64,000 nt of DNA from an uncultured Bifidobacteriaceae bacterium (GCA_964475285.1 CAYYWB010000001.1:6529-70528), one strand, 5' to 3'; counted from the first letter of the stretch, positions 17,498-37,614 are shown. The notes: a model not told the origin generated them from the letters alone. A program made the numbers and translations.

Positions 17498-17498
17498 A

Positions 17499-18308: not shown

Positions 18309-18317
18309 TATTTGCTT

Positions 18318-22633: not shown

Positions 22634-22752
22634 AGATATGAATGCAAGTGTAATATTCTCACAATTCATTGCGAGCCAGCCTCCCGGTAACGAGCTTTAC
22701 AGGGACAAATGTCGTAGATATCCGAATTCAAATAATATAGCCCTATAGTGGC

Positions 22753-25194
22753 ATGAAAGAAAACGTTAAGGACATATTTATTCAATTGTTTAAAGCACCA
22801 ACTGAAGAAGGTGTGGATGAAATTCTGCAAAACAACGCAACACTTTTTGCCCCTCAAGAGCGTTGGCATCCACTGGATGGAAATGAGAGCAATTTTGGAG
22901 TTATTGAAAACCAGCAATCTTCGCCGATAGCGGCACTGATTGAGAAGATTACCAACTCCATTGATGCGATATTGATGCGCAAATGCTATGAAGCCGGCAT
23001 TGACCCGAAATCACCCAAGGCACCCAAGTCGATGGAGGATGCTGTCGCTAGGTTGTTTCAATCAGAAAGCGAAACGTGGTATTTAAGCCCAAACCGCCAA
23101 AGGCAAGCAGAAGATATTCAGATTCTTGCAGACGGGCCTCGCATGAACACATCTCTGGTAATTTACGATAATGGAGAGGGGCAGCACCCAGAAGATTTTG
23201 AAACAACTTTCCTCTCGCTTCTGAAAGGCAACAAGAACGAAATCCCATTTGTCCAAGGCAAATATAACATGGGTGGAACCGGTGCCATCGTATTCTGTGG
23301 TAAGAAGAGGTATCAATTAATAGCCTCAAAGAAATATGATGGGACGGGACATTTTGGCTTCACGTTGATCCGCAAGCATCCGCTTTCCGAAGCTGAAATG
23401 CTCACGAAAAAGAACACTTGGTATGAATATTTAAAAGTAGACAGAGAGATTCTTAATTTTCCAATCGAGACACTGAATCTTGGGCTAAAAGACCGTCTAT
23501 TCAAGACGGGAACAGTCATAAAACTTTACAGCTATGACCTGCCAGGAGGAGCGCGTTCAGTTATTTCGCGTGACCTCAACCAAAGCATCAACGAGTTTCT
23601 TTTCGAGCCCGCCTTGCCTATCTACACGATTGACAAGCCGGAACGTTATCCGCTCGACAAGAATCTGGCTCGTGAGTTGTTTGGCTTAAAGCGTAGGCTG
23701 GAACAGGATGATTCGAAATACATTGAAGATTCGTTTTCAGAAGACTATGAATCCACTGAAATTGGTAAAACAAAAGTTACCTGTTACATCTTTAAAAACA
23801 AAGTCGAGGGGAAGACTGTTAAAGAAAGCCGTGAGACCATTGAGCGGGAATTCTTCAAGAACAACATGTCGGTCATGTTTTCTGTGAACGGACAGGTCCA
23901 TGGTCACTATACCTCCGAGTTCATCACGCGCTCATTGAAGATGCCTTTACTGAAAAGCCATCTTCTGATTCATGTTGATTGCACCCATATGAGGATGAAT
24001 TTCAGGAATGAGCTATTCATGGCCTCGCGAGACCGACTGAAGGGTGCCGATGAAACTCGAATACTTCGCGAACTGCTCATTGAGCTTCTTGTTAAGAGTA
24101 AACTTCAGGAAATCTACAAGCGGCGCAAAGACTCCATTTCCTTGGAAAGCGGAGACACAAAAGACACAGCGGAACTTTTAAGGGGATTCACCAAATCAAT
24201 GCCGTTGAACAGTGACCTTTTTAAGCTTTTGAGCAATACATTCAAACTCGACTTGCCGAAAGAGAAAACCAAAGGAGAAATAGAAAAGAAGAAGGACGAG
24301 CCAAAGGAGAAAGAGGAATCCTTCAAGCCAAATCGATTCCCATCATTTTTCAAACTGCGGAGTCAGGGCACAGAAAATAAACCGGCTGCCAAGATTCCTT
24401 TGAACGGTGCTCGATCAGTGAGGTTTTTGACCGATGTGGAAAATCAGTATTTCGACCGGACGGAAGACCCCGGGGACCTGCGAATCTCATTGGTGAGCTT
24501 CAAGCGAAATGACATAACTGGGGGGACAGGGCCCGGAGAACCAAAGCAATTATCAGACTTGTTGAACCTCCGAAAAGCTAGTCCAAATGATGGCACCATA
24601 AAAATCGTGCTAAACCCAACAAAAGAAGCCAAAGTGGACGACTTGATTCAAATTCGAGCCGAGCTTGACGGCCAAGGCGTCGAATACGAGGAGTGTTTTT
24701 GGGTGAGGATCGTTGATGAAGAAAAGCCGAAGGAAAACACGCAAAAGGAAGAAGAAAATAAACAGGAGAATTTTGGCTTGCCGCAACCAAAGTTAGTTTA
24801 CCAGGGGAAAAAAGAAGGTTTTGTTTCATGGGAAGAATGTGCAAGCGGCGGGATCGAAATGGATTTCAACACAACCATGCATCCCTATGTTGCTGGAGAA
24901 CAGTTGGAAGCAATTTATATCAACATGGACAGCCACGTTTTGAAGAGTCACAAAGGCAGAATCAAATCAATCACCGAAGAGCAAATCAAACTAGCGGACA
25001 AAAAATATATCAGTTCCGTTTACTTCCACACTCTCTTCTTGTTTGCCACAGCCAAAAGCAAGAATTACAGCATGAAGCAAGGCGAAAACGAGAAGGACAT
25101 AACGGATTTCTTGAAGGATATATTTTCCTGTTCATACTCGGAATTCCTGCTAAATTTCGGCACCGAGCAATTAATGGAGAGTTTGGAGCTATAG
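22753..25194 (+). CDS. GHKL (Bergerat-fold) ATPase-like large protein
   Basis: 813 aa. Motifs: IEKITNSIDA (N-box-like), VIYDNGEGQ (G1), GKYNMGGTGAIVF (G2). A Lys/Glu-rich linker follows. It is on the same strand, 119 nt after the previous gene. Confidence 0.55.
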   Translation: MKENVKDIFIQLFKAPTEEGVDEILQNNATLFAPQERWHPLDGNESNFGVIENQQSSPIAALIEKITNSIDAILMRKCYEAGIDPKSPKAPKSMEDAVARLFQSESETWYLSPNRQRQAEDIQILADGPRMNTSLVIYDNGEGQHPEDFETTFLSLLKGNKNEIPFVQGKYNMGGTGAIVFCGKKRYQLIASKKYDGTGHFGFTLIRKHPLSEAEMLTKKNTWYEYLKVDREILNFPIETLNLGLKDRLFKTGTVIKLYSYDLPGGARSVISRDLNQSINEFLFEPALPIYTIDKPERYPLDKNLARELFGLKRRLEQDDSKYIEDSFSEDYESTEIGKTKVTCYIFKNKVEGKTVKESRETIEREFFKNNMSVMFSVNGQVHGHYTSEFITRSLKMPLLKSHLLIHVDCTHMRMNFRNELFMASRDRLKGADETRILRELLIELLVKSKLQEIYKRRKDSISLESGDTKDTAELLRGFTKSMPLNSDLFKLLSNTFKLDLPKEKTKGEIEKKKDEPKEKEESFKPNRFPSFFKLRSQGTENKPAAKIPLNGARSVRFLTDVENQYFDRTEDPGDLRISLVSFKRNDITGGTGPGEPKQLSDLLNLRKASPNDGTIKIVLNPTKEAKVDDLIQIRAELDGQGVEYEECFWVRIVDEEKPKENTQKEEENKQENFGLPQPKLVYQGKKEGFVSWEECASGGIEMDFNTTMHPYVAGEQLEAIYINMDSHVLKSHKGRIKSITEEQIKLADKKYISSVYFHTLFLFATAKSKNYSMKQGENEKDITDFLKDIFSCSYSEFLLNFGTEQLMESLEL

Positions 25195-25268
25195 GCTATC
25201 AAATTAACAAAGTAGCGGGCGCAGCTTGTATGTTTTGTTACTAGCACATCCAATAAAGCCGACAGAAG

Positions 25269-25333
25269 CATGACACAACCATGACACAACCATGACACAA
25301 CCATGACACAACCATGACACAACCATGACACAG
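25269..25333 (+). repeat. 11-bp tandem repeat CATGACACAAC x5 plus a diverged sixth unit
   Basis: Read directly. Units start at 25269, 25280, 25291, 25302, 25313 and 25324. Confidence 0.95.
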
Positions 25334-25489
25334 ACTGAACTTAAGGAATGTGTTTACGAGATTATTGACACAGAACCCACTCCATCCTTTGAAGGATTAA
25401 CTTTAGGTTGCAAGCTTGAAGACGAAGAGGCCTTCATCAGCAGAATGATTAAGTTCAAAAAGGCCAAAAGGAAAAACCACAAAGCCTAA
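25325..25489 (+). CDS. possible small ORF (54 aa) initiated from the last repeat unit
   Basis: Hand translation gives MTQTELKECVYEIIDTEPTPSFEGLTLGCKLEDEEAFISRMIKFKKAKRKNHKA*. It is below the track cutoff and has no homology evidence. Confidence 0.2.
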   Translation: MTQTELKECVYEIIDTEPTPSFEGLTLGCKLEDEEAFISRMIKFKKAKRKNHKA

Positions 25490-25532
25490 CATACACCGCA
25501 ATGCCAATTACAATTGGGTTTCTAGGGGCTAA

Positions 25533-26663
25533 TTAACCACGCAAGGCGATCACGTTCCGAATCAGTGTGTCCACGCAAATTTGAACTTCATCCTCCCGCG
25601 AATGTATCCCCAACGAGAAACGCAGGGAATGACGGGACGCAACGCCATCAGATTTCATGGCCTTGATGACATACGAAGGTTCGTCAGAGTTGCCGAGACA
25701 GGCTGAACCTTTAGACGCACAGATCCCCGCCTGATCTAATAAGGCGAGAAGTGCATCAGACTCGACGCCATGAAATGTGATGTTCGTAGTGTTGGCTAAT
25801 CGCAAGCCCAAGTGTCCGTTAATTTCTGCGTTTGAAATCTTGGTGAGAATACTCGTTTCTAACATGTCTCGCAAAGGGCGCACTTTAGCGTCGTAGTTAT
25901 GCAAATACCGAGTTGCAAGTTCGGCGGCTTTACCTAAACCGACGATGAGCGGAACATTCTCTGTTCCGCCACGCAATCCGTTTTCTTGATGTCCGCCGTG
26001 CAAGAAGGGAATAAAGGGCGAATTCCGTCGAACATAAAGAGCGCCCACTCCCTTCGGAGCATAAAATTTGTGACCCGACAGCGACAGATAATCCACTTGC
26101 GTTTGGCGAACGTTGATTTCCTTTTTGCCTGCCGCTTGCACTGCGTCACAATGAAAAAAGATTTTGCGTTTACGGCATAGTTCTGCGATTTCTTGAACAG
26201 GAAATAGCACGCCAGTCTCGTTATTTGCCCACATCAACGACACTACCGCCGTTTGATCGGTGAGTGCGTTCTCCAAGTCTGCTGTTTTCAGCAATCCGTC
26301 ACGGTTGACCCGCAAATATGTTACGCGGTAGCCCTCCTTTTCCAGTGCCAAACAATAATTTAAAACCGAGGAATGTTCGACAACCGAAGTGACAATGTGA
26401 CGTTTCGCGGGACATGATTTTAGCGCAGCCTGAATCGCAGCATTGTTGCTCTCTGTCGCGCAAGAGGTGAACAGGATTTCCTCCGGCAAAGCGCCCACCA
26501 TATCTGCTACTTGCTCGCGCGCCGCCCCAATCAACGTTTTGAGCTTTGAACCAAACCGATAGGCGCTTGATGGGTTGCCCCATTCGTCACAAAAATATGG
26601 GCGCATTGCCTCGAACACTTCAGGCAAGACCGGCGTAGTTGCGTTGTGGTCAAAATAAATCAT
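25533..26663 (-). CDS. sspA: cysteine desulfurase (NifS/IscS class), SspA-like
   Basis: The PLP-lysine region is LSLSGHKFYAPKGVGALYVRR, and the N-terminus reads MIYFDHNATTP. I chose the start at 26663; the track ORF extends to 26726. Confidence 0.75.
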   Translation of the reverse strand: MIYFDHNATTPVLPEVFEAMRPYFCDEWGNPSSAYRFGSKLKTLIGAAREQVADMVGALPEEILFTSCATESNNAAIQAALKSCPAKRHIVTSVVEHSSVLNYCLALEKEGYRVTYLRVNRDGLLKTADLENALTDQTAVVSLMWANNETGVLFPVQEIAELCRKRKIFFHCDAVQAAGKKEINVRQTQVDYLSLSGHKFYAPKGVGALYVRRNSPFIPFLHGGHQENGLRGGTENVPLIVGLGKAAELATRYLHNYDAKVRPLRDMLETSILTKISNAEINGHLGLRLANTTNITFHGVESDALLALLDQAGICASKGSACLGNSDEPSYVIKAMKSDGVASRHSLRFSLGIHSREDEVQICVDTLIRNVIALRG

Positions 26664-26885
26664 CAAGCCAACGAATTTTGCCGGAAAGGAGAAATATATG
26701 CAACCAATGCAACGCAAATATTTCATACGCGTTGAACAGTGAATGCACGAAATGCCAAAAATCCACGCATACTACGTATGTAATCAGTCACACTATTTGC
26801 GGAGGAAAATTCGGCAAAGCCAATGCGACATATTTTTCATGGCGCTGAAACGGCATCAACTGGGAAAGGCGTGGGGGCTTGCGAT

Positions 26886-28801: not shown

Positions 28802-29254
28802 TTAAAGGAGTGGCTTTCCGTCAGCATACCAGCGGGGTGTTAATTTAGGAAGAAATGACAGCGCTAGTCCATATTGATATTGAAATTGCCGGTCGCCGGC
28901 AGGTAGACGAGTAAATTCCTTAACTTTCCGATCGTCTGCTATCTCATCGAGCTTTAGCTCGACGAGTAAGAGATTGTGCTCCGGTAAGGATTGTCCCCGA
29001 TGGTGTAGTATGATGTCAGGGCGAGTGTTTTCCGTAACGCGGCCAGTTTGGGCGTTAGTCTTTGTGTCACCTTTTTCTCCTTGTTTGTTGTATTCGCAGT
29101 CCACATTCCATCCCGGTATTTCCTGTTCCAAATATACGGCTAAACGATGGGCTATAGCCCATTCGGATACCTTAATCTCAAAAAGTTTTGAGTCACGAGC
29201 ATAGAGGGTATTAATTGCCCTTTGCATACGCGCCTTTAATTCGGGAAGATTCAT
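28802..29254 (-). CDS. small PD-(D/E)xK nuclease-fold protein (putative)
   Basis: 150 aa. RPDIILHH...NLLLVELK fits the PD...ExK spacing. It lies 13 nt downstream of the exonuclease I gene. Confidence 0.45.
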   Translation of the reverse strand: MNLPELKARMQRAINTLYARDSKLFEIKVSEWAIAHRLAVYLEQEIPGWNVDCEYNKQGEKGDTKTNAQTGRVTENTRPDIILHHRGQSLPEHNLLLVELKLDEIADDRKVKEFTRLPAGDRQFQYQYGLALSFLPKLTPRWYADGKPLL

Positions 29255-29267
29255 AGCGCAATTATGG

Positions 29268-30674
29268 TTAATTCACGTGTGCAAGTGCCTGTCTATGGCG
29301 CTCGCGAAGATACTGCTCATGTTCCCGGAGCAGTTCCAACTTCGGCCCAGACGCATCCTCTAACATTCCTTCAAGCTCCACAAGAGCCTGGGGTAAGGTC
29401 AGCCACGATATATCTTTGCCCTGCCCCAGAAGCCGCTTTGCAGAGGCCAAATTATATTCTCGGCACATAGCTTCGTCCAAAAGGTGGGGTTGTTCGAGAT
29501 GAATCAACTGCCTGCCAATCGCCCTCAAGCGCGAGTCTTGAAATTTTTCAACTATTGCACAACGCTCAGGCCATGTCGCTTCGTGGAATGCGTCCATTAG
29601 TATTTCGTCTGGCTTCTCAATAAATCCATCATAAATCTGTTTCTCTACATGAGGCGAAGGGGGATACTCCTCTTTCTGGGACTCCAAAGCAGAAATCAAC
29701 CGCTGACACAGTGCAGTATCCGTCTGAACCATGACTGCGCGGCGTTCTAATTCTTCCAAGCCACATTCCCGGCCATTGCAGATTTCCGGGGCATCTTCGG
29801 CAGGAAAAAGCATAGGTGCGGCATTGGATTTTACTCTGCGCACTGGTTTTGGTGATTCCGCAAGTCGTGTTGCGAGTTCAGCTTCGGAGAGCGATAACAA
29901 TGATTCTGGTTCAACACTCAGATCATAGACATACCATTCGGCCTTATTCTCTTGGTTCTGTCCGATTGTCGTAACAATATAGGAATAAGGTTTACCAAAG
30001 AAAAAGTCACTCACACAGAACACGCGCTCATCGTTGATGTAATCAACAACAGCAGTTTTCTTGCTGAAGCGCATGAAGGACGACCAAATATGTGGTGCTT
30101 TCTCAATGAGAAGTTTGCAGAGAAAAATTGTGGCAGCAACGTCGCCCATCGCATCGTGCGCTCGGTCATGTTTGAACCCATTGGCAGGCGCAATCTGCTC
30201 TAGTTTGAATACCCTTTGGCCATTGTCGTCGGTAGGGAATGTAAGCGCGTCAGGTGCAAAAAGACTGCACGCCTGAACAATGCGCATGACATCTGAACGA
30301 CTATTTCCGACGCTATTGGTTAGATATGGGTTGTGCAAAGTTTTGTAGAGGGCTTGACGAACCAAATCCTCGTCAAATCTTATGGAATTCCACCCAATGA
30401 ATAAAGCCGGAGACCATGACAGCAACTTTGCGCGAATGGCACGAACCATTTCATAATGAGACGGGGAGGACGGATCGGTTAGCTGAGAAACCTTCACACC
30501 CGTAACACTAATCGCGCCGGGTGCCGGAACTATATGAGGCAAGAGGCGGCAGCGAATCTCAATGCGATCAATTTCATTGAGTTTATCGTCCGTCTGAACG
30601 GCGGCAAATTGCAAAATCTGGTCAAAGAACGTTTCAGTCCCAGTGGTCTCTGTGTCGTAGAAAACGAGACTCAT
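29268..30674 (-). CDS. sbcB: exodeoxyribonuclease I (SbcB-like DEDDh 3'-5' ssDNA exonuclease)
   Basis: FYDTETTG (Exo I), GWNSIRFDEDL (Exo II) and AHDAMGDVAAT (Exo III) are collinear with E. coli ExoI as I recall it. It is 468 aa, like ExoI. Confidence 0.8.
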   Translation of the reverse strand: MSLVFYDTETTGTETFFDQILQFAAVQTDDKLNEIDRIEIRCRLLPHIVPAPGAISVTGVKVSQLTDPSSPSHYEMVRAIRAKLLSWSPALFIGWNSIRFDEDLVRQALYKTLHNPYLTNSVGNSRSDVMRIVQACSLFAPDALTFPTDDNGQRVFKLEQIAPANGFKHDRAHDAMGDVAATIFLCKLLIEKAPHIWSSFMRFSKKTAVVDYINDERVFCVSDFFFGKPYSYIVTTIGQNQENKAEWYVYDLSVEPESLLSLSEAELATRLAESPKPVRRVKSNAAPMLFPAEDAPEICNGRECGLEELERRAVMVQTDTALCQRLISALESQKEEYPPSPHVEKQIYDGFIEKPDEILMDAFHEATWPERCAIVEKFQDSRLRAIGRQLIHLEQPHLLDEAMCREYNLASAKRLLGQGKDISWLTLPQALVELEGMLEDASGPKLELLREHEQYLRERHRQALAHVN

Positions 30675-31234
30675 GGCTTGTTCGAGTTAGCCGGAGGTTG
30701 AATATGATTGCGAATCTTATACTCTAATGCCTGCTTGCTGACTCGAAATTTCTTCGCTAATTTTTCAATAGGGGCGTCGTCATCTATGTCAAATTGTTTC
30801 CCGGCCAACTCTTGTTCAATAAGCGCGCTAGGCATCAATAATTCTGCTGCAAATTGATTAGCTCGAATTTCAATCTGCTCTGTTCCGGTTGCCGAAATTG
30901 AATTACGCATTAGCACTGGAAAACCTTTATCCACATGTATGCTACTCGTAATCATGTCTCTATCATATTCGAAATGCCCTAGCTCATGCGCAATTGTAAA
31001 TCGCTGGCGATTGGGGTGATGCATCGAGTTAACCCCGATGATTGGAACTCCATCTTTAACATAAATCATTCCAGCCAATTCATCATCGAACGGCGCAAAT
31101 CGCACCTGAACACCTAATGCCTTGGCGATTTTCTCCACTGGAGTCGGCGATGACTTTATAGATAGGCTAGCAAGAAGTTCCTGTGCCTGAATATATGGAT
31201 TATCGTTTGGTGGTTTTGACATGGCCTGCATCAT
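30671..31234 (-). CDS. ImmA/IrrE-family zinc metallopeptidase (CapP-like)
   Basis: HEXXH in FTIAHELGHFEYD. It lies directly downstream of an XRE HTH gene, and its stop overlaps the ExoI start (ATGA at 30671-30674). Confidence 0.75.
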   Translation of the reverse strand: MMQAMSKPPNDNPYIQAQELLASLSIKSSPTPVEKIAKALGVQVRFAPFDDELAGMIYVKDGVPIIGVNSMHHPNRQRFTIAHELGHFEYDRDMITSSIHVDKGFPVLMRNSISATGTEQIEIRANQFAAELLMPSALIEQELAGKQFDIDDDAPIEKLAKKFRVSKQALEYKIRNHIQPPANSNKP

Positions 31235-31248
31235 TGTTTTGTTTTTGA

Positions 31249-31659
31249 TTAGTGTCTATCTGCAAAGAGATTAGCCACTTGCTTTTTCTGCTGTTCCTTC
31301 AGGTCATCAGGAACAGGCAACTCGGTGCGCTCAACCTCCAAATCATCATTTGACCGTGGCGGCAGTAGATCAAAAGGCGTCAACTTTAATGCAGCGGCGA
31401 ACTTGTAGAGATTGTGAACCAGAACGTTCTGCCGTCCAGTTTCGATGTTGGCCAGCGACCCCCTTGAAATCCGTAACGTCCTCGCCAGAGTTTCTTGCTT
31501 CAGCCCAAGTGTTTTGCGCCGAGTTTTGATTAACGCGCCAATGTGTTTATAAATTGGATCAATAATCACAGGCCAATAATAAACCCGGACAAACCGAATG
31601 TCAACGTCATACGCAATGCGTGTAATACACGCAAATATATTGCGTGCTTTGTTTGACAA
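31249..31659 (-). CDS. XRE-family HTH transcriptional regulator (CapH-like)
   Basis: The HTH is LGLKQETLARTLRISRGSLANIETGRQN. The true start may be the GTG at 31569 (MIIDPIYKHIG..), because a TTGACA-17-TATTAT promoter and palindromic operators lie inside the longer ORF. Confidence 0.7.
   Translation of the reverse strand: MSNKARNIFACITRIAYDVDIRFVRVYYWPVIIDPIYKHIGALIKTRRKTLGLKQETLARTLRISRGSLANIETGRQNVLVHNLYKFAAALKLTPFDLLPPRSNDDLEVERTELPVPDDLKEQQKKQVANLFADRH
31576..31604 (-). promoter_or_regulatory. sigma70-like promoter for the XRE/ImmA/ExoI operon
   Basis: The minus strand reads TTGACA (31604-31599), a 17-nt spacer, then TATTAT (31581-31576). Confidence 0.5.
31611..31646. promoter_or_regulatory. 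two related palindromic operators (ACGCA-A-TGCGT and CACGCAA-ATATA-TTGCGTG)
   Basis: Read directly at 31611-31621 and 31628-31646. They sit between the two divergent promoters. Confidence 0.55.
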
Positions 31660-31680
31660 AACATCCTTTTTGGTTACAAT
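31653..31680 (+). promoter_or_regulatory. sigma70-like promoter for the ubiquitin-like operon
   Basis: TTGACA (31653-31658), a 16-nt spacer, then TACAAT (31675-31680). ACAATTAAC is repeated at 31676 and 31720 in the leader. Confidence 0.5.
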
Positions 31681-31770
31681 TAACCCGTGGTCAACTTACA
31701 CGGTCCGTGTCCGCTGACGACAATTAACAATTCGCCTGCCAATGCGGCGGCGAGCAACAAAAAATATAAC

Positions 31771-32235
31771 ATGAAGCACGAAAAAGACATCCACATTGTC
31801 GTGGAAATCAAGAAAAACGACCTGCGCGAAGTGACATTCCATCATGATCGTGTCACTGGCGGGGAAGTAAAAGAATTGGCCCACGTATCTTTGGAAGAGA
31901 GGCTCTTCGTTTTCCGCAACGGAGACTTTCATCCTGTGGGCAACAACGAAACCACGATTATTAAGGACAAGGAACATTTCGTCGTCGTTCCGCACGGCGA
32001 GATCTACTACTCGGTTGATGACGAGCCGCAGTGGACGCGTGAAAAGATCCTGACGCCAAAGAAAATCATGGAGGACGCGGGAATCGACCCTGCCACGAAT
32101 TATTTGAGCGAGATAAAGGGGGACGGTCAGCCACCCGAATCTTTTAAGGACAAACCGGATGAACCCATACATATGCATGATGGAATGAAGTTTTTATCAA
32201 CCTTCGTCGGGCCAAAACCTGTATCGAATCATTAA
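31771..32235 (+). CDS. multiubiquitin-like (tandem beta-grasp) protein
   Basis: 154 aa from MKHEKDIHIVV. It has two repeats of a short beta-grasp-like pattern (..VTGGEVKELAHV.. and ..ILTPKKIMEDAGIDP..PIHMHDGMKF). It is followed by E2-like and JAB-E1 genes. Confidence 0.5.
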   Translation: MKHEKDIHIVVEIKKNDLREVTFHHDRVTGGEVKELAHVSLEERLFVFRNGDFHPVGNNETTIIKDKEHFVVVPHGEIYYSVDDEPQWTREKILTPKKIMEDAGIDPATNYLSEIKGDGQPPESFKDKPDEPIHMHDGMKFLSTFVGPKPVSNH

Positions 32236-32240
32236 TTATT

Positions 32241-32600
32241 ATGGGCAGGGATAAATTCAAACAAGGATTGGAAGACCTCAATTACCTGGTGGAGACAAAG
32301 GATGAGGACAAGGCAATCATTCCATTTGTAATTACGGCAGGTAAGTTTGCCGGTCAACAAGTTAAAGTCGGATTTCAAGTGCCAGTGGATTTTGAGATGA
32401 CTTGTCCGGGCGGCCCTCACGTATCGCCGCGCTTGATTCCAATTAATACCGGCGGTCCAGATCATTCTACGCGAGCAGCCGAAAGCCCGCAGTTTGGCCC
32501 CGAATGGGAGTATCTGAGTCGGCCATTCAACCAATGGGCTCACAAACGAACTGTAAAGCGATACATGGAATACGTGGCAGATTTGCTGAATACATTATGA
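32241..32600 (+). CDS. prokaryotic E2-like (UBC-fold) protein
   Basis: 119 aa. The candidate catalytic Cys lies in FEMTCPGGPHVSP. Its position between the Ubl and E1 genes supports the call, and its stop overlaps the E1 start (ATGA at 32597-32600). Confidence 0.45.
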   Translation: MGRDKFKQGLEDLNYLVETKDEDKAIIPFVITAGKFAGQQVKVGFQVPVDFEMTCPGGPHVSPRLIPINTGGPDHSTRAAESPQFGPEWEYLSRPFNQWAHKRTVKRYMEYVADLLNTL

Positions 32601-34102
32601 TTTACGGCGTCGCTCTTACATCAGATACGCACGAGCAACTTCGTGAACATCTCTTGCAAACCTTTGACCAAGAGGATTTGTGTTTTGCTCTCTGGTATCC
32701 AAGTAATGGAGCAACGCGCTTTTCTGCTTTAATCCACAAAGTAGTAATGCCGAAAGAGGGGGAGCGACTTCTCCATGGAAACGCTTCGGTAACTCCCGAA
32801 TACTTCAACCGTGCTTTAAACGAAGCGATGGAAAGCGGTGCCGGATTGGCTTTTTTGCATAGCCATACTGGACCTGGGTGGCAGGGTATGAGCGATGATG
32901 ATATTGATACCGAACGGGCAATGGCCGCTCAAGCAAAGGCCGCTACCAGTCTGCCTTTGGTTGGCATGACTATTGGAACGGACGGTGCATTGAGCGCGCG
33001 TTTTTGGGAAAAGGTTGGACCCAAATCATACAAACGGAAATGGTGCCACGCCGTGCGAATTGTCGGCCATGGCGGTCTTGAAGCTACATTTACAGATGAC
33101 CTTTGCCCTCCGCCGGGATTTCGAGAGGAATTGAAACGAACAATTTCTGTATGGGGAATTGAAAAGCAGCAAAAGCTTGCCCGTCTTAAAGTTGGCGTTA
33201 TCGGTGTCGGAAGTGTCGGAAGTATTGTTGCCGAGACTTTGGCACGGATGGGTATACAAGAAATCACTCTCATTGATTTTGACGTTGTTGAAAAACACAA
33301 CCTCGACCGCCTTCTTCATGCGACACAAGAGGATTACCTAAAAAAGCATCTGAAAGTTGACGTTTTGAAGGATGCCTTGAAAAAGAGTGCAACTGCTGAA
33401 CATTTTACCATAAAACCAATTCCGTGTAGCGTTACGGAAGAAGACGGATTTCGCGAAGCATTGGATTGTGACGTTTTGTTTAGTTGCGTCGACCGGCCTT
33501 GGGCGCGTTATATTTTGAATCTTATTGCCTATGCTCATTTGATTCCTGTAGTCGATGGTGGAATTGCAGTCCATACAAAGCCGAACGGCGATTTGCGTGG
33601 AGCGGATTGGCAGGCCCACATTGCGTGTCCGACCCGCAGGTGTTTGGAATGTTTGGGGCAATACGATTCGGGCTACATTGAAACGGAAAGGAGGGGTGAT
33701 TTGGATAACCCGTCGTACATCCAATCCCTGGCGCGGGATCATGTGCTTAAGCGAAATGAAAATGTTTTTCCGTTCAGCTCAAATCTCGCGTCGCTTGAAG
33801 TGTTGCAGATGCTCTCAATGGTTATCGCCCCATTTGAAATTTCAGACGTAGGAACACAACATTTCCACTTTGTTCCAGGAATAATGGATGTTGAGCATCT
33901 CGGAATTTGTCACAATTATTGCCTATTTCCGGGCCTGACTGCAAAAGGTGATAAGTGCGGATACCTGGCTACGGGTGAGCACCCGAAAGCTCGTGAAATT
34001 AGGCAGCAGCAGGCTGCTTCACAAAAAAGAATTTTGCCGCGCATAATATCAGCAGTGCGGCGATTTGCAGACAAAATAAAATATAAAATAAAAAAACCAT
34101 GA
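32597..34102 (+). CDS. JAB/MPN deubiquitinase-like domain fused to ThiF/E1-like adenylating enzyme
   Basis: The JAMM-like motif is FLHSHTGPGWQGMSDDD. The E1 Rossmann signature is VGVIGVGSVGSIVAETLARMG..DFDVVEKHNLDRL, followed by Cys clusters (CPTRRCLECL). Confidence 0.7.
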   Translation: MIYGVALTSDTHEQLREHLLQTFDQEDLCFALWYPSNGATRFSALIHKVVMPKEGERLLHGNASVTPEYFNRALNEAMESGAGLAFLHSHTGPGWQGMSDDDIDTERAMAAQAKAATSLPLVGMTIGTDGALSARFWEKVGPKSYKRKWCHAVRIVGHGGLEATFTDDLCPPPGFREELKRTISVWGIEKQQKLARLKVGVIGVGSVGSIVAETLARMGIQEITLIDFDVVEKHNLDRLLHATQEDYLKKHLKVDVLKDALKKSATAEHFTIKPIPCSVTEEDGFREALDCDVLFSCVDRPWARYILNLIAYAHLIPVVDGGIAVHTKPNGDLRGADWQAHIACPTRRCLECLGQYDSGYIETERRGDLDNPSYIQSLARDHVLKRNENVFPFSSNLASLEVLQMLSMVIAPFEISDVGTQHFHFVPGIMDVEHLGICHNYCLFPGLTAKGDKCGYLATGEHPKAREIRQQQAASQKRILPRIISAVRRFADKIKYKIKKP

Positions 34103-34305
34103 GTAATAAATATTATCCCAAAGGGCTTGATGGCCGCGAGCGTGACAGAGACGGCCAAATCCGTGAAAAGCGCGGCGACACTAAAGTTGGCACATTGCGG
34201 AAAGAATACGGCCATGATTTTGCCAAAGGCTACCGTTCCGACACCAAATTGGAAACGATCCGAGAAGATACCGGAAAAAGTTTAAGCCAAATCTTAAAAA
34301 AATAG
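34099..34305 (+). CDS. small basic hypothetical protein (68 aa), translationally coupled to E1
   Basis: ATGA overlap at 34099-34102. It is Lys/Arg/Asp-rich and has no recognisable motif. Confidence 0.4.
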   Translation: MSNKYYPKGLDGRERDRDGQIREKRGDTKVGTLRKEYGHDFAKGYRSDTKLETIREDTGKSLSQILKK

Positions 34306-34390
34306 GTTGATAAACAAGTTCCGCCGGCAGACCGGTTTGTCCGCCCGTGAATCACGCGCCACGTTTCGTGCGAACAGCAAATTACAATAT

Positions 34391-34693
34391 ATGGAAAATT
34401 TCAGCATTGAGCGAGCTGGCATTGCCAACCTCGATTTTACCGGTGAATTGATCGGTCAGAGCAGCGGCCCGACGCCACGGATAAAGATTTACCGCACCAA
34501 AGCCAACAAGTATGTCGGCGAGATGAGCGCCAATCTGAAGATGGCACAGGCGCAGCACTTCGACAATCCGACGGTTTTGATCAATTGGTTCAAAAACACC
34601 GCTGGCATCACCGGCGAGATCCAAGACGCCATTGAGGACGCCGCGAAGAATGACGAGGCGTTCAAAGCGGCGTGGAACGAGCATGTGGATTAA
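34391..34693 (+). CDS. hypothetical protein (100 aa)
   Basis: ATG at 34391 (MENFSIERAG..). The track ORF starts at a TTG at 34307. Confidence 0.35.
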   Translation: MENFSIERAGIANLDFTGELIGQSSGPTPRIKIYRTKANKYVGEMSANLKMAQAQHFDNPTVLINWFKNTAGITGEIQDAIEDAAKNDEAFKAAWNEHVD

Positions 34694-34701
34694 ACCGATA
34701 T

Positions 34702-34923
34702 ATGAAAACATCAACTTTGATATTTATCTGTATAATCGCTGTCATGGCGGCGTATGTATTGGGACGGTATATTGAACGGCTCACTACGGTTCAGGGCGAA
34801 GTGGGCGACCTAAAAATGCGGGTGGTCAAATTGGAGAACCACAAAATGCGCGGTGAAGTGCGCTGGGAATGGTTTTATCGTATCGCCTCACATATTCCGG
34901 TTGTGAGAGGTCTTTTACGCTGA
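34702..34923 (+). CDS. small single-pass membrane protein (73 aa)
   Basis: MKTSTLIFICIIAVMAAYVLG is a hydrophobic helix, followed by a coiled-coil-like segment. Confidence 0.35.
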   Translation: MKTSTLIFICIIAVMAAYVLGRYIERLTTVQGEVGDLKMRVVKLENHKMRGEVRWEWFYRIASHIPVVRGLLR

Positions 34924-34978
34924 TGACAAATATGTCGGGTCAATATCTATTTAACTCAATCAACAACTCCTAAAACAT

Positions 34979-35317
34979 ATGGCAATTTACATGGTAACAA
35001 ATACCCCAAATAAATTGTTGGCGGCTTTCAAAAAAGCCATTGATGACGGCCATGTAGCTACATGGTCTTATGATAAAAACGGCGATTTCACACATACGGC
35101 AACACAATGGAAAGGTCTGGCATGGCTTCGACCATCGGTGGTAGAAAAAGAACGCCTCGTATTAAACATTATGCCACCTCAAAAATCACAAATGTCGTCT
35201 GAGGTGTATGCCATATATCATGGACGTTTCATTGAGTCTATGCTTGCGCACTGTGACAAGCTTTTCACCACCGGAAGTGCGACAGCATTACCCGAAGGCG
35301 ACGATTCTGTTGGATAA
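34979..35317 (+). CDS. hypothetical protein (112 aa)
   Basis: ORF with an ATG start. No recognisable motif. Confidence 0.35.
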   Translation: MAIYMVTNTPNKLLAAFKKAIDDGHVATWSYDKNGDFTHTATQWKGLAWLRPSVVEKERLVLNIMPPQKSQMSSEVYAIYHGRFIESMLAHCDKLFTTGSATALPEGDDSVG

Positions 35318-35324
35318 TAACTAT

Positions 35325-35344
35325 ACTTGCCAAATATGGCAAGT
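35325..35344 (+). promoter_or_regulatory. palindrome copy 7, oriented toward the 3' end of the recombinase gene
   Basis: ACTTGCCAAATATGGCAAGT, followed on the plus strand by CGGA-CCGTCT. Confidence 0.55.
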
Positions 35345-35409: not shown

Positions 35410-37197
35410 TCACAGCTGACCAGGGGACCCAAACTCGTTTTTGAAGTGAGCGTATATGAGTGCGGCCGCACGCTTGGCTTTACGCACCGAGGTTCTAACA
35501 TCGTCTAAGTCTCCCAGCATGTAAGGACGCATGAAGATAGTTTGCATTTTCTGTCTTTGCGTCACAACGACATTTTCAGGTTCGATTGGCGATATTATGG
35601 GCTTTTCAGGGTATATCACGTTCTCAAGTATCAAGAACGGTTTTCTGGCTTCAAATAACAGCTTTTTGTCTTTCAAAGTTAGGTTCGATTGGACGGTGGT
35701 AAAAATCTCTTTTTTGACACTGGGATCACCTTCGGCGAACCGCTTCTGTGCGGTGCAGGCGACTTCAAAGGTTTCCTCTGACATTTTTAATTGCTGCTCC
35801 AAGCGCTTGTCGGCGTCGTTAATCAATTTCTCCAAAGCCGCCTTTTCACCAAGCAGCTTGCCCCTGAGTTGCGCGTATTCGTCATCGGACAGTAAAATCC
35901 CGTTCTTGTTGCCGGACGATGTCTTGAGATTCAAAAGACCGTCAATCGCTTCCAGGCATTCATGATGCGCCTTCCGTTGGACCTTGATAATCTCATCCTG
36001 CAAGGATTTCTCCTGTTCGTGCAATTCATGCAGGTGTTTGACGGCCCACTCCTTGAACTTCTTGGAAATGGTGATCCACGCAAGGCGTTCGCTAATTTGA
36101 TCCTCCAATTCTTTTCCTGTCACCCCTTTCTGTGGACACAATGGCCTTCGGCTTTTGGAGCAATGGTAATAGGTGTAATGAAGAAACAGCGGGTTCACCA
36201 TCTTTTCAATCGTCGTCTTGCAACGCGGGCAGGCATCGCGGTGTCGGTAGGCAAACTTGAATTTGCAATTGCTGCAAATGACCTGATGTCTTTCATCGGC
36301 CGTCACCATCCGGGCACACTCGCCGCAGCGGATGAGGCCGGTGAATGGAAATTCGTGATGCGCTTGCGGGCGGGGGCTTCCTTTTCGGCCAAGCAACGTC
36401 TGCACCCGGTCATATTCCGCCTCCGTGACCATCGGCTCGTGCTTCCCCTGATACCATTGGCCGCTCCCGCTCGGATATTCAAACCTGCCGCAATAGAACG
36501 GTTTGGTGAAAATTTGGTAGATGGCGCTTCGGGCCAGCGGTTTGCCGCCCATGCGCCGGGTTGGCCGGGTGCGAAAGCCCCATTCAGTGTTGGCCATTTC
36601 CAGAATCTTTGGCGGCGTGTGGAGGCCGGTTAGCATCGTTTCCCACATTTTCCGAATTATCGGGAAACGCTCCGGGTCTTTGATGAGGGTGTTTTGACCT
36701 GTCAGCCTGTCGGTGTGGTTCAAATAGCCCGCCGGGGCCACGCCCGGATACCAGCCGTTCTCAATCTTGGTTTTGAGGCCGCGTTTGACGTTCTTGCTCA
36801 AGTCGTCAACGTATTTTTGAGCCATGCCGAATTCGATATACATGAGGATGATGTTGTCATCCTCGCGGGCATAGCTTTGGGCCGGGGTCATCACTTTGAT
36901 GCCATGTTGCTTGATGGCCCAGATGATGGCGCCGCCGTCAACCGAGTTGCGGGCCAAACGATCCAGTTTCCAGCAAATGACGCCGGCAGCTTCGCCCCGG
37001 TAGAGCCGTTGCATCATTTCATTGAATACGGGTCTTCCTGGGGCTTTGGCGGATTTTGATTCGGTCAATATCTCGGCCACGGGCAGATTGAGTTTTGCGG
37101 CCAACTGCTCCAGTTCGCGGGTTTGCGATTCAATGGAAAGAACCTGCCGGTCTTCGGCTTCTGATGATTTGCGGCAGTAAATGAAATATCCTGGCAT
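35410..37197 (-). CDS. large serine recombinase (resolvase + recombinase + zinc-ribbon domains)
   Basis: The catalytic region is YFIYCRKSSEAEDRQVLSIESQ..WKLDRLARN. The Cys clusters are CGECARMV..CSNC..CPRC. Start at MPGYF (37197), or at 37230. Confidence 0.85.
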   Translation of the reverse strand: MPGYFIYCRKSSEAEDRQVLSIESQTRELEQLAAKLNLPVAEILTESKSAKAPGRPVFNEMMQRLYRGEAAGVICWKLDRLARNSVDGGAIIWAIKQHGIKVMTPAQSYAREDDNIILMYIEFGMAQKYVDDLSKNVKRGLKTKIENGWYPGVAPAGYLNHTDRLTGQNTLIKDPERFPIIRKMWETMLTGLHTPPKILEMANTEWGFRTRPTRRMGGKPLARSAIYQIFTKPFYCGRFEYPSGSGQWYQGKHEPMVTEAEYDRVQTLLGRKGSPRPQAHHEFPFTGLIRCGECARMVTADERHQVICSNCKFKFAYRHRDACPRCKTTIEKMVNPLFLHYTYYHCSKSRRPLCPQKGVTGKELEDQISERLAWITISKKFKEWAVKHLHELHEQEKSLQDEIIKVQRKAHHECLEAIDGLLNLKTSSGNKNGILLSDDEYAQLRGKLLGEKAALEKLINDADKRLEQQLKMSEETFEVACTAQKRFAEGDPSVKKEIFTTVQSNLTLKDKKLLFEARKPFLILENVIYPEKPIISPIEPENVVVTQRQKMQTIFMRPYMLGDLDDVRTSVRKAKRAAALIYAHFKNEFGSPGQL

Positions 37198-37287
37198 TGA
37201 AGTGTGTTCGTAACGAAGGGGAAGCGGCAACCAACGGGGAATACAAGGCCATGCTACCCCGCCAACATGGAAGCGTCAACGAAGCTG

Positions 37288-37484: not shown

Positions 37485-37504
37485 ACTTGCCAAATCTGGC
37501 AAGT
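37485..37504 (-). promoter_or_regulatory. palindrome copy 8 (drives the small ORF and recombinase)
   Basis: ACTTGCCAAATCTGGCAAGT. In the minus direction it is followed by CAGA-CCGTCT. Confidence 0.6.
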
Positions 37505-37594: not shown

Positions 37595-37614
37595 ACTTGC
37601 CAGATTTGGCAAGT
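37595..37614 (+). promoter_or_regulatory. palindrome copy 9 (drives the HTH / RuvC-like genes)
   Basis: ACTTGCCAGATTTGGCAAGT followed by GGAC-CCGTCT. The leader contains CACAGGGTTC, as in copies 1, 2 and 4. Confidence 0.6.

What the first reader, a model, noticed from the sequence alone, without database searches (positions are those of the whole stretch)
31771..35317. Multiubiquitin - E2 - JAB/E1 conjugation operon on the mobile element, with four extra downstream small genes
**Seen in sequence**
- A tandem beta-grasp-like protein is followed by a 119-aa E2-like protein.
- Next comes a fused JAMM (HSHTGPGWQGMSDDD) plus ThiF/E1 (GVIGVGSVGS..DFDVVEKHNLDRL) protein.
- The E2-E1 and E1-next gene junctions are ATGA overlaps.
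- Four more small ORFs, one with a TM helix, fill the space up to the backbone boundary.

**Established knowledge**
- Operons of this composition were predicted computationally as prokaryotic ubiquitin-like systems.
- Related Bil/Bub-type and CBASS Cap2/Cap3 systems act in antiphage defence.

**Inference**
This is a defence-type Ubl conjugation module regulated by the adjacent XRE/ImmA pair. The trailing small proteins may be targets, adaptors or effectors.
Basis: partly seen in the sequence, partly recalled or inferred. Interest (0 to 1): 0.6.

Follow-up and report, generated by a model that had tools for sequence, protein, structure and literature searches.

The report
Bub-like ubiquitin-type conjugation operon lacking BubE
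This is a real three-gene bacterial ubiquitin-like tagging system (modifier, E2, and a peptidase fused to an E1) from a widespread, uncatalogued branch of the known Bub systems; the small genes after it are separate passengers.

Summary
Window 31771-34102 encodes three proteins:
- a tandem beta-grasp Ubl of 154 aa;
- a cysteine-less UBC-fold E2 of 119 aa;
- a JAMM peptidase-E1 fusion of 501 aa, whose best solved relative is Citrobacter BubCD.

Both ATGA gene overlaps are present.

The trio is conserved in at least 80 species-level genomes across many phyla. About 70% of loci carry a CapH/CapP (XRE/ImmA) pair.

It is a relative of Type I Bub (6E), but it fails several Bub hallmarks:
- No DUF6527/BubE in the window or in any related locus.
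- The Ubl tail motif ends in Ser, not Gly. In 50 of 78 loci the ORF stops exactly at that Ser; the window adds the dipeptide NH.
- The E2 keeps the invariant catalytic Ser, but the partner His two residues on is replaced (SRP). A conserved His sits elsewhere.
- The E1 has an invariant crossover-loop Tyr at a shifted position.

The trailing genes are not core parts. The 68-aa, 128-aa and TM-helix genes form an independent module that often has its own CapH/CapP pair. The 112-aa gene occurs in unrelated plasmid contexts.

An antiphage role is unproven, even for canonical Bub.

Verdict: new variant of a known kind, of moderate interest.

The parts
30671..31234 (-). capP-like ImmA/IrrE (M78) metallopeptidase with an HELGH motif. 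Inferred DNA-damage-activated protease of the regulator pair.
   Evidence: Pfam Peptidase_M78 2.8e-27; PADLOC capP 9.5e-35; CapP-like gene in 70 of 96 sources.
31249..31569 (-). capH-like XRE-family HTH repressor. 106 aa from GTG 31569; the longest ORF runs to 31659.
   Evidence: Pfam HTH_3 1.4e-10; PADLOC capH 3.6e-8; JGI gene call of 106 aa on the identical contig.
31570..31770 (.). Divergent control region. Sigma-70-like promoter on + at 31653-31680 (TTGACA-16-TACAAT) and on - at 31604-31576. Overlapping ACGCA/TGCGT palindromes at 31611-31646 are candidate CapH operators. An imperfect inverted repeat at 31687-31721 lies in the leader.
   Evidence: Consensus matches only; the total of promoter-like sites in the region is no higher than in shuffles.
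31771..32235 (+). Ubl with two beta-grasp domains (BubA-like 'multiubiquitin'). Tail GPKPVS-NH: inferred mature C-terminus Ser152, with the NH dipeptide removed by the JAB domain.
   Evidence: Pfam Multi_ubiq E = 4e-4, below cut-off; AF2 plus Foldseek hits to 9d5b and 9d59 at E about 1e-5; hhalign to Oscillatoria BubA probability 87%, E = 4e-6; C-terminus survey.
32241..32600 (+). E2-like protein, a divergent Prok-E2_E/BubB relative. No conserved Cys; invariant Ser93 in the W-x-Y-L-S-R-P motif; conserved His60.
   Evidence: AF2 pLDDT 92.6; Foldseek E2 hits including BubB 9eae_C, TM 0.62; Pfam Prok-E2_E E = 0.2 here, 26.6 bits (cut-off 25) for the L006 homologue; hhalign to Oscillatoria E2 E = 5e-5; residue counts.
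32597..34102 (+). JAB/JAMM peptidase fused to a ThiF-type E1 (BubCD-like). Four-Cys cluster C349/C352/C438/C442; invariant Tyr374 in the crossover region; basic C-terminal tail.
   Evidence: PDB 9ea4 Citrobacter BubCD E = 1.7e-25, profile 4.3e-36; Pfam ThiF 1.1e-31; conservation in 82 sequences.
34099..34305 (+). 68-aa highly charged protein ('D68'). Its start overlaps the E1 stop (ATGA). Member of a broad unannotated family; a passenger module, not a core part.
   Evidence: 647 clusters at E <= 1e-3; follows the JAB-E1 in L010, L011/L012 and L091; tblastn finds a JAB-E1 directly upstream in 4 of 76 D68 loci and HMM or Pfam scans find a ThiF-type gene near D68 in 8-9, while about 25 have their own CapH/CapP.
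34307..34693 (+). 128-aa ORF ('E128'; likely 100 aa from ATG 34391). Recurrent partner of D68, in either gene order.
   Evidence: Found with D68 in 17 of the 82 D68 loci, and in L010 and L091; no Pfam, NCBIfam or PHROG match.
34702..34923 (+). 73-aa protein ('F83') with an N-terminal hydrophobic helix. Third member of the D68 module.
   Evidence: Found with D68 in 10 loci; sequence.
34979..35317 (+). 112-aa protein ('G112'). An unrelated mobile small gene.
   Evidence: Linked to the trio only on contigs carrying a 100%-identical JAB-E1; plasmid homologues of 33-61% identity in other contexts.

Best explanation
**What it is.** A stress-inducible ubiquitin-like protein conjugation system of the Bub/'6E' lineage. 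It belongs to a widespread three-gene clade (Ubl, E2, JAB-E1) that has no BubE.

**Proposed working; only the sequence and fold features are shown here, every step is inferred.**
1. CapH represses the divergent promoter. On DNA damage or infection, CapP cleaves CapH and the operon is transcribed.
2. The JAMM domain of the E1 fusion trims the two-residue NH extension of the tandem beta-grasp Ubl. This exposes the conserved ...G-P-K-P-V-S tail.
3. The ThiF-type domain adenylates that C-terminus.
4. The Ubl passes to the invariant crossover-loop Tyr374, then to the invariant E2 Ser93. Both intermediates are oxyesters, as shown for Citrobacter Bub. His60 is the likely catalytic partner, in place of the canonical His two residues after the Ser.
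5. The Ubl ends on lysines of unknown target proteins.
6. With no BubE present, the always-intact JAMM domain probably also removes conjugates.

**The trailing genes.** The downstream small genes are co-transcribed passengers. D68, E128 and F83 are an independent CapH/CapP-type module, and G112 is unrelated.
For: **Homology of all three proteins to characterised Type I Bub**
- E1 against the Citrobacter BubCD structure: E = 1.7e-25 for the single sequence, 4.3e-36 for the profile.
- Ubl model against Citrobacter, Methylobacterium and E. coli multi-ubiquitin structures: E about 1e-5.
- E2 model against E2 enzymes and BubB.
- hhalign to a canonical Oscillatoria Bub operon: E = 5e-5 for the E2, 4e-6 for the Ubl.

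**Conservation**
- JAMM and adenylation residues, four Cys and Tyr374 are invariant or nearly so in 82 E1 sequences.
- E2 Ser93 is present in 81 of 81. It aligns with the Ser of the 'WSRH' motif of two canonical Bub E2s, which I equate with the published S333/H335 from the spacing alone. No Cys is conserved.
- Tyr374 lies 22 residues after the CxxC. From my knowledge of human UBA5 numbering, that resembles the spacing of its catalytic Cys250.
- The Ubl tail ends in Ser in 71 loci and in Ala in 5, of 76 scored. ORFs stop there in 50 of 78 loci, carry 1-10 extra residues in 14, or fuse to the E2 right after it in 12.
- JAMM residues stay intact even where no trimming is needed.

**Regulation and context**
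- CapP-like gene in 70 and CapH-like gene in 62 of the 96 sources; promoter-like sites and palindromes.
- Published basis for the Bub oxyester mechanism and for the CapH/CapP association: 10.1101/2024.11.21.623953.
- Defence-island context: Ssp system and a PD-Lambda-3_A-like gene.
Against: - There is no biochemical evidence for this clade.
- The canonical E2 partner residues (His two after the Ser, and the Asp) are not conserved here.
- The invariant Tyr of canonical BubCD aligns with a non-conserved position about 9 residues downstream of Tyr374.
- A Ser C-terminus is unprecedented for an E1-activated Ubl. Activation chemistry and cleavage site are therefore inferred from ORF ends only.
- I could not inspect model coordinates, so the proximity of His60 to Ser93 is untested.
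- Foldseek E-values for the E2 are weak, and the Ubl model is only moderately confident.
- Canonical Bub has given no phage protection so far (PMC13373217), so the biological role is open.
- The count of promoter-like matches in the region is no higher than in shuffles.
Confidence: 0.7

Rival explanations
1. It is an ordinary Type I Bub operon that has simply lost bubE. The differences (split Ubl and E2, Ser end, SRP motif) are neutral drift or decay in this one element.
For: All three proteins are homologous to Type I Bub. RefSeq also annotates the canonical Oscillatoria operon with separate Ubl and E2 genes. One canonical-type Mesorhizobium plasmid locus also shows no DUF6527 gene in the PLSDB table.
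Against: - The BubE-less architecture with the same distinctive motifs recurs in the 80 species-level genome loci kept, out of 369 relatives found, from many phyla.
- Catalytic residues in these loci are fully intact. That is a stable clade under selection, not decay.
- E1 identity to the two canonical Bub E1s aligned is only about 21-26%, against 46-75% within the clade.
Confidence: 0.12
2. All seven genes form one functional system. The trailing small proteins are dedicated targets, adaptors or effectors of the Ubl cascade.
For: - The E1 stop overlaps the D68 start (ATGA).
- D68 follows a JAB-E1 in several independent lineages: L010, L011, L091, L102, L104, L111, L115.
- ThiF is the commonest Pfam family among D68's upstream neighbours, 8 of 66.
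- D68 has an invariant Lys24.
Against: - D68 is absent from 77 of 78 distinct trio loci.
- tblastn places a JAB-E1 directly upstream in 4 of 76 D68 loci, and HMM scans find a ThiF-type gene near D68 in 9 of 82. About 25 instead have their own divergent CapH/CapP with D68, E128 or F83 as the only cargo.
- F83 and G112 are linked to the trio only on contigs carrying a 100%-identical JAB-E1.
- G112 relatives sit in unrelated plasmid contexts.
Confidence: 0.12
3. It is not a protein-conjugation system. The E1-like enzyme adenylates the Ubl C-terminus for sulfur transfer or for a peptide or small-molecule modification (ThiS/MoaD-like or MccB-like). The Cys-less E2-like protein is an inactive RWD-type adaptor, as originally suggested for 6e operons.
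For: - Weak sequence matches to MoeB, ThiF and MccB.
- The E2 lacks Cys, which Iyer et al. 2006 read as inactivity (PMC1779556).
- The non-Gly C-terminus recalls MccB substrates (my own knowledge).
Against: - The closest solved relative by far is BubCD, which does conjugate its Ubl to lysines via Tyr and Ser (10.1101/2024.11.21.623953).
- Invariant E2 Ser93 and E1 Tyr374.
- An always-intact JAMM peptidase.
- No sulfurtransferase or biosynthetic partners in 80 loci.
- Mobile, defence-island and CapH/CapP context.
Confidence: 0.06

Closest known systems
Type I Bub (bacterial ubiquitination-like; '6E.1'/DUF6527 operons) of Citrobacter sp. RHBSTW-00271 (Ye, Gong, Chambers, Corbett; bioRxiv 10.1101/2024.11.21.623953; PDB 9ea4, 9eae)
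   Same: - JAB/JAMM-E1 fusion with a single ThiF-type adenylation domain.
- Multi-beta-grasp Ubl.
- Cys-less Prok-E2_E-type E2 with an invariant Ser at the aligned catalytic position.
- An invariant Tyr in the E1 crossover region.
- Frequent CapH+CapP regulators and mobile-element location.
- Some clade members have the Ubl-E2 fusion.
   Different: - No DUF6527/BubE.
- Ubl and E2 are separate genes here.
- The Ubl tail ends in Ser (PVS) instead of Gly.
- The E2 motif is S-R-P instead of S-R-H. The canonical Asp position is Gly or Ser, and a conserved His60 replaces the canonical Tyr.
- The crossover Tyr is about 8-9 residues earlier.
- Identity of the E1 to the two canonical Bub E1s aligned here is only about 21-26%.
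Operon type 6e of Iyer, Burroughs and Aravind 2006 (PMC1779556); Pfam Multi_ubiq PF14452 and Prok-E2_E PF14462
   Same: A central JAB-E1 gene with a poly-Ubl and a Cys-less E2/RWD-like protein, sporadic and mobile across bacteria.
   Different: - The described type also includes a Zn-finger protein (now DUF6527), which is absent here.
- The window's Ubl and E2 fall below the Pfam cut-offs: 21 against 24.5 bits, and 11.8 against 25 bits.
Bil (bacterial ISG15-like) systems, Type I and II
   Same: A Ubl, E2, JAB and E1 gene set, with trimming of a Ubl precursor by the JAB peptidase and a defence-island context.
   Different: [quoted passage not shown]
- The JAB peptidase is a separate protein.
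- The E2 uses Cys thioesters.
- Antiphage activity has been demonstrated for Bil, not for this system.
Type II CBASS Cap2/Cap3 with CapH/CapP regulation
   Same: - An E1-type adenylation domain; PADLOC E1-E2 models hit only residues about 190-310.
- A JAB-type deconjugating peptidase.
- A CapH/CapP promoter switch.
   Different: - No CD-NTase and no effector.
- The E2 is not fused to the E1.
- A dedicated beta-grasp modifier is present.

Membership tests
Type I Bub (6E.1) | JAB/JAMM peptidase-E1 fusion homologous to BubCD, with intact JAMM and adenylation residues | tested here: met
   PDB 9ea4 E = 1.7e-25 over residues 6-330; profile 4.3e-36. E26/H88/H90/S99/D102, GxGxxG, R238 and D299 invariant in 82 sequences.
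Type I Bub (6E.1) | Ubl with 1-3 beta-grasp domains (multiubiquitin) | tested here: met
   AF2 model plus Foldseek: 9d5b and 9d59 at E about 1e-5, probability 1.00. hhalign to Oscillatoria BubA E = 4e-6. Pfam Multi_ubiq E = 4e-4, below cut-off.
Type I Bub (6E.1) | Cys-less Prok-E2_E-type E2 with a catalytic Ser | tested here: met
   Ser93 in 81 of 81 and aligned with the Ser of 'WSRH' in canonical E2s. UBC fold by AF2 and Foldseek, including BubB. Pfam score is sub-threshold for the window protein but passes for homologue L006.
Type I Bub (6E.1) | E2 catalytic partners: His two residues after the Ser, and an Asp (S333/H335/D299 in Citrobacter) | tested here: not met
   The motif is S-R-P in 60 of 81 and S-x-N in 14. 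The Asp position is mostly Ser or Gly. A different His (His60, 73 of 81) is conserved.
Type I Bub (6E.1) | DUF6527/BubE serine protease gene in the operon ('all Bub operons possess bubE') | tested here: not met
   No Pfam hit in the four downstream ORFs. phmmer and a motif scan of all ORFs in the 64-kb window and 95 loci find only the Oscillatoria control. A Pfam scan of 98 downstream ORFs finds DUF6527 only in that control.
Type I Bub (6E.1) | Ubl-E2 fusion (BubAB) cleaved after a conserved C-terminal Gly of the Ubl | tested here: not met
   Separate genes with a stop codon between them. The conserved tail ends in Ser (71) or Ala (5) of 76 scored. 12 of 78 relatives are fused right after that Ser. 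Two canonical controls end in Gly.
Type I Bub (6E.1) | Invariant Tyr in the E1 crossover loop, with no catalytic Cys | tested here: inconclusive
   Tyr374 is invariant in 82 of 82, and the only invariant Cys nearby form a CxxC...CxxxC cluster. The canonical invariant Tyr aligns about 9 residues downstream, at a variable position. HMMER alignment to 9ea4 stops before the loop.
Type I Bub (6E.1) | Oxyester-based, ATP-dependent conjugation of the Ubl to lysines | not testable with these tools
   This needs biochemistry.
Bil (Type I/II) | E1 with inactive plus active adenylation domains and a Cys domain; separate JAB; E2 with catalytic Cys | tested here: not met
   A single ThiF domain at residues 181-353 with an N-terminal JAB. 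The E2 has no conserved Cys; Cys55 occurs in only 11 of 81.
Type II CBASS (Cap2/Cap3) | E2-E1 fusion Cap2 next to a CD-NTase and an effector | tested here: not met
   PADLOC E1-E2 models match only the adenylation core, residues about 190-310. No CD-NTase in the operon.
CapH/CapP regulator pair | Adjacent XRE-type HTH and M78 (HExxH) peptidase genes at the promoter of the regulated operon | tested here: met
   PADLOC capP 9.5e-35 and capH 3.6e-8. HELGH motif. Divergent arrangement with promoter-like sites and palindromes. Recurrent beside the trio. Cleavage and DNA-damage response were not tested.

The most novel reading that the evidence does not exclude
This clade is a third, BubE-less type of bacterial ubiquitination-like pathway.
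- Its modifier is activated and conjugated through a C-terminal serine rather than glycine.
- It uses a rewired all-oxyester relay: E1 Tyr at a new loop position, and E2 Ser with a His at the position I take to be that of the classical HPN histidine.
- A single fused JAMM domain does both precursor trimming and deconjugation.
- It is present in hundreds of species across more than 15 phyla, including some archaeal genomes assembled from metagenomes, and is switched on by DNA damage through CapH/CapP.
Probability: 0.35. Interest if true: 0.7.

Novelty: new variant of a known kind. Interest (0 to 1): 0.55.

Why it matters
Bub systems are the most diverged ubiquitination-like pathways known, and their biological role is still open.

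**What this clade adds**
- It is large and phylogenetically broad, and the existing catalogue misses it because that catalogue was built from DUF6527-containing operons.
- It shows that BubE is dispensable for the lineage.
- It gives natural variants of each catalytic element (Ubl C-terminal residue, E2 partner residues, E1 Tyr position). These make the oxyester mechanism and the 'Gly-only' rule for E1-activated modifiers directly testable.
- Pfam and RefSeq largely fail to recognise its Ubl and E2 ('hypothetical protein'), so annotation would benefit.

**Side result**
- D68, E128 and F83 emerge as a separate small CapH/CapP-associated module of unknown function.

Tried and rejected
**Searches that led nowhere**
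- Sequence search of the E2 against PDB: no hit at E <= 10. The Ubl gave only chance hits.
- A profile of the Ubl C-terminal domain against PDB: the top two hits were bacterial multi-ubiquitin proteins, but at E about 0.2.
- HMMER alignments to BubCD stop at about residue 330, so the crossover loop could not be aligned that way. I used MAFFT with two canonical BubCD homologues instead.
- The word-index protein search found only 2 Ubl homologues. The Ubl structure was therefore predicted from a 3-sequence alignment, giving moderate confidence.
A narrower alignment worked.
- Pfam, NCBIfam, PADLOC and PHROGs gave nothing for the four small ORFs.

**Readings considered and rejected**
- Bil or CBASS membership, because the architecture and the catalytic Cys are absent.
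- The GTG 31687 start for the Ubl, because homologues start at the ATG.
- Gly147 as the mature Ubl end. That Gly is not conserved across the clade, whereas the terminal V-S is at least 90% conserved and marks the ORF ends and fusion junctions.

Full report
**1. Observation.**
The + strand of window 31771-35317 carries seven consecutive ORFs:

| Gene | Coordinates | Length |
|---|---|---|
| Ubl | 31771-32235 | 154 aa |
| E2-like | 32241-32600 | 119 aa |
| JAB-E1 | 32597-34102 | 501 aa |
| D68 | 34099-34305 | 68 aa |
| E128 | 34307-34693 | 128 aa from TTG; more likely 100 aa from ATG 34391 |
| F83 | 34702-34923 | 73 aa, N-terminal hydrophobic helix |
| G112 | 34979-35317 | 112 aa |

- The E2/E1 and E1/D68 junctions are ATGA overlaps.
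- The quoted JAMM and ThiF motifs are present.
- The JAB-E1 protein is 100% identical on 11 metagenome contigs. The whole locus was seen on the five that were fetched.

**2. Identity of the three core proteins.**

*E1*
- Pfam ThiF scores 1.1e-31.
- The best solved relative is Citrobacter BubCD (9ea4). E = 1.7e-25 over residues 6-330, covering both the JAMM and adenylation domains. A family profile gives 4.3e-36.

*E2*
- No PDB sequence hit, and Pfam Prok-E2_E scores only E = 0.2. A 44%-identical homologue passes the Pfam cut-off (26.6 bits against 25), and the canonical Oscillatoria Bub E2 scores 9e-50.
- hhalign of the E2 family against that canonical E2 gives E = 5e-5 over 107 columns.
- An AF2 model from 30 homologues is confident (pLDDT 92.6).
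- Its full-length Foldseek matches are E2 enzymes (UbcH5, UbcH7, UBE2L6) and BubB 9eae_C, with TM about 0.6. E-values are weak, 0.03-0.15.

*Ubl*
- Pfam Multi_ubiq is sub-threshold, E = 4e-4.
- An AF2 model from a shallow alignment has pLDDT 75. The N-terminal domain is the more confident, and the tail 148-154 is disordered.
- It matches the Methylobacterium, Citrobacter and E. coli multi-ubiquitin structures at E from 1e-5 to 6e-4, probability 1.00. Linear di-ubiquitin and ISG15 follow.

**3. What is known.**
- Iyer et al. 2006 (PMC1779556) predicted operon type '6e': a JAB-E1 gene, a poly-Ubl, a Cys-less E2/RWD-like protein and a Zn-finger protein.
- Ye et al. (10.1101/2024.11.21.623953) renamed it Bub.
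[quoted passage not shown] - Conjugation runs through an E1 Tyr370 and E2 Ser333 (with His335 and Asp299) oxyester relay.
  - BubAB is cleaved after a conserved Gly.
  - 31% of the 544 operons have CapH+CapP.
- The catalogue was built from DUF6527-containing operons (10.1101/2024.11.21.623966).
- No phage protection has been found for Bub (10.1101/2024.11.21.623953; PMC13373217).
- An earlier paper noted that 70% of PF14452 genes sit beside a COG2856/XRE pair (PMC4963859).

**4. The clade.**
- The JAB-E1 protein search returned 4057 hits at E <= 1e-5, which include other ThiF-type proteins. The best 120 are all at least 55% identical to the query.
The best 80 come from many phyla. They include Verrucomicrobiota, Acidobacteriota, Gemmatimonadota, Chloroflexota, Bacteroidota, Planctomycetota, Actinomycetota, Myxococcota, two Candidate Phyla Radiation (CPR) genomes and two archaeal metagenome-assembled genomes.
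- In local HMM searches of all ORFs in 96 sources, the Ubl was found in 91, the E2 in 93, CapP-like in 70 and CapH-like in 62.
- In 12 of 78 distinct loci the Ubl and E2 are fused, as in BubAB.
- DUF6527 was found only in the canonical Oscillatoria plasmid control:
  - by iterated phmmer;
  - by a Cys-motif scan;
  - by a Pfam scan of 98 downstream ORFs.
- Those downstream ORFs are otherwise heterogeneous: DUF3892, helicases, DUF2188, caspase-like and others.
- The BubE-less three-gene architecture is therefore a stable, widespread clade.

**5. Catalytic anatomy.**

*E1 (82 sequences)*
- JAMM residues E26/H88/H90/S99/D102 and adenylation residues are invariant.
- C349, C352, C438 and C442 are invariant and look like the usual structural Zn site.
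- Tyr374 is invariant and lies 22 residues after the CxxC.
- In a MAFFT alignment with two canonical BubCD homologues, the Tyr they share falls about 9 residues later, at a position that varies in this clade.

*E2 (81 sequences)*
- Ser93 is invariant. It aligns with the Ser of the canonical 'WSRH' motif, which I equate with S333/H335.
- The residue two positions on is Pro (60) or Asn (14), not His.
- The canonical Asp position is mostly Ser or Gly.
- His60 is conserved (73 of 81) where canonical E2s have Tyr. By sequence pattern (H-[VI]-S-P against H-P-N) I infer that it corresponds to the classical HPN histidine.
- No Cys is conserved.

*Ubl*
- The tail motif is G-P-[TK]-P-V-S.
- 50 of 78 ORFs stop exactly after the Ser. 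14 add 1-10 residues (the window adds NH). 12 continue into the E2 domain at that point.
- The end residue is Ser in 71 and Ala in 5 of the 76 scored. One further locus ends in Gly.
- The upstream Gly is not conserved across the clade.
- Both canonical controls end in Gly.

I therefore infer a mature C-terminal Ser.

Because the JAMM residues stay invariant where no trimming is needed, I also infer that the JAMM domain deconjugates as well, standing in for BubE.

**6. Regulation and context.**
- capH (31249-31569) and capP (30671-31234) are divergent from the Ubl gene.
- The 200-bp intergenic region has promoter-like sites on both strands, each matching 11 of 12 consensus positions. Overlapping ACGCA/TGCGT palindromes lie between them.
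- capP is co-operonic with an ExoI/SbcB-like exonuclease and a PD-Lambda-3_A-like protein.
- An SspABCD-type system lies upstream. A TrwB-like ATPase and a large serine recombinase flank the region.
- G+C is lower from about 13 to 39.8 kb.
- This supports a mobile defence-island setting, but not a demonstrated function.

**7. The trailing genes.**

*D68, E128 and F83*
- D68 follows the JAB-E1 in a few independent lineages: L010, L011/L012, L091, L102, L104, L111, L115.
- D68 belongs to a broad unannotated family of 647 clusters.
- Among 82 loci of close D68 relatives:
  - tblastn places a JAB-E1 directly upstream in 4 of the 76 with enough upstream sequence;
  - HMM scans find a ThiF-type gene near D68 in 9;
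  - Pfam finds ThiF in 8 of 66 upstream neighbours;
  - about 25 have their own CapH/CapP pair directly upstream, with D68, E128 or F83 as the cargo;
  - E128 accompanies D68 in 17 and F83 in 10.

*G112*
- It has plasmid homologues in unrelated contexts, beside an NYN-domain gene or TIR-domain genes.

These genes are best read as an independent CapH/CapP-type module plus a stray gene, co-transcribed here. An accessory or substrate role for D68 is not excluded.

**8. Verdict.**
- The locus is a new variant of a known kind: a BubE-less Bub-like system with a Ser-ended Ubl and a rewired active site.
- The biological role is unknown.

Noticed in passing
window 34099-34923; loci L096, L114, L121-L124, L133-L139, L143, L147, L148, L162: D68, E128 and F83 recur as a small module with their own divergent CapH/CapP pair and no E1 nearby. 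This looks like an undescribed CapH/CapP-controlled cassette. One D68 domain is fused to an RNase_T exonuclease (P0208).
   Followed up: partly
window 13102-26726: An SspABCD-type DNA phosphorothioation system: SspB 13102-14049, SspC 14042-17497, SspD 17439-18308, and SspA/DndA-like 25533-26726 on the - strand. Three large ORFs lie between them at 18312-25194; two match GHKL-type ATPase domains and the third (20684-22633) has no Pfam match.
   Followed up: partly
window 28802-30674 (- strand): capP overlaps by 4 nt an ExoI/SbcB-like exonuclease (PADLOC RTasSbcB 3e-116; NCBIfam exodeoxyribonuclease I 2.4e-66). A 150-aa PD-Lambda-3_A-like protein follows (4.5e-17). This second cargo of the regulator pair was found only on three of the contigs that carry the identical operon, besides the window.
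   Followed up: partly
window 35325-35344, 37485-37504, 37595-37614: Three copies of a 20-nt palindrome, ACTTGCCAAAT[AC]TGGCAAGT, flank the large serine recombinase gene (35410-37230, - strand). They may be recombinase or regulator binding sites.
   Followed up: no
window 25250-25337: A tandem array of about seven copies of an 11-nt unit (GACACAACCAT), downstream of the 813-aa ORF at 22753-25194 that has a sub-threshold GHKL-ATPase match.
   Followed up: no
window 34979-35317; L178 (Acidithiobacillus pGT2), L179 (Komagataeibacter pKOB3): G112 has plasmid homologues of 33-61% identity, beside an NYN-domain gene or among TIR-domain genes. On pGT2, a D68-like segment and a G112-like segment lie about 1.5 kb apart inside larger proteins.
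   Followed up: partly
plasmid hits H7-H13 and H27: Haloarchaeal plasmids encode ThiF-family proteins about 26-31% identical to the JAB-E1. Six align over 86-93% of its length and two over 65-82%, which suggests a further archaeal branch of this lineage.
   Followed up: no
window 33930-34102 (E1 residues about 445-501): The E1 ends in a poorly conserved but consistently basic tail (KAREIRQQQ...RRFADKIKYKIKKP), present in most clade members. Its function is unknown.
   Followed up: no
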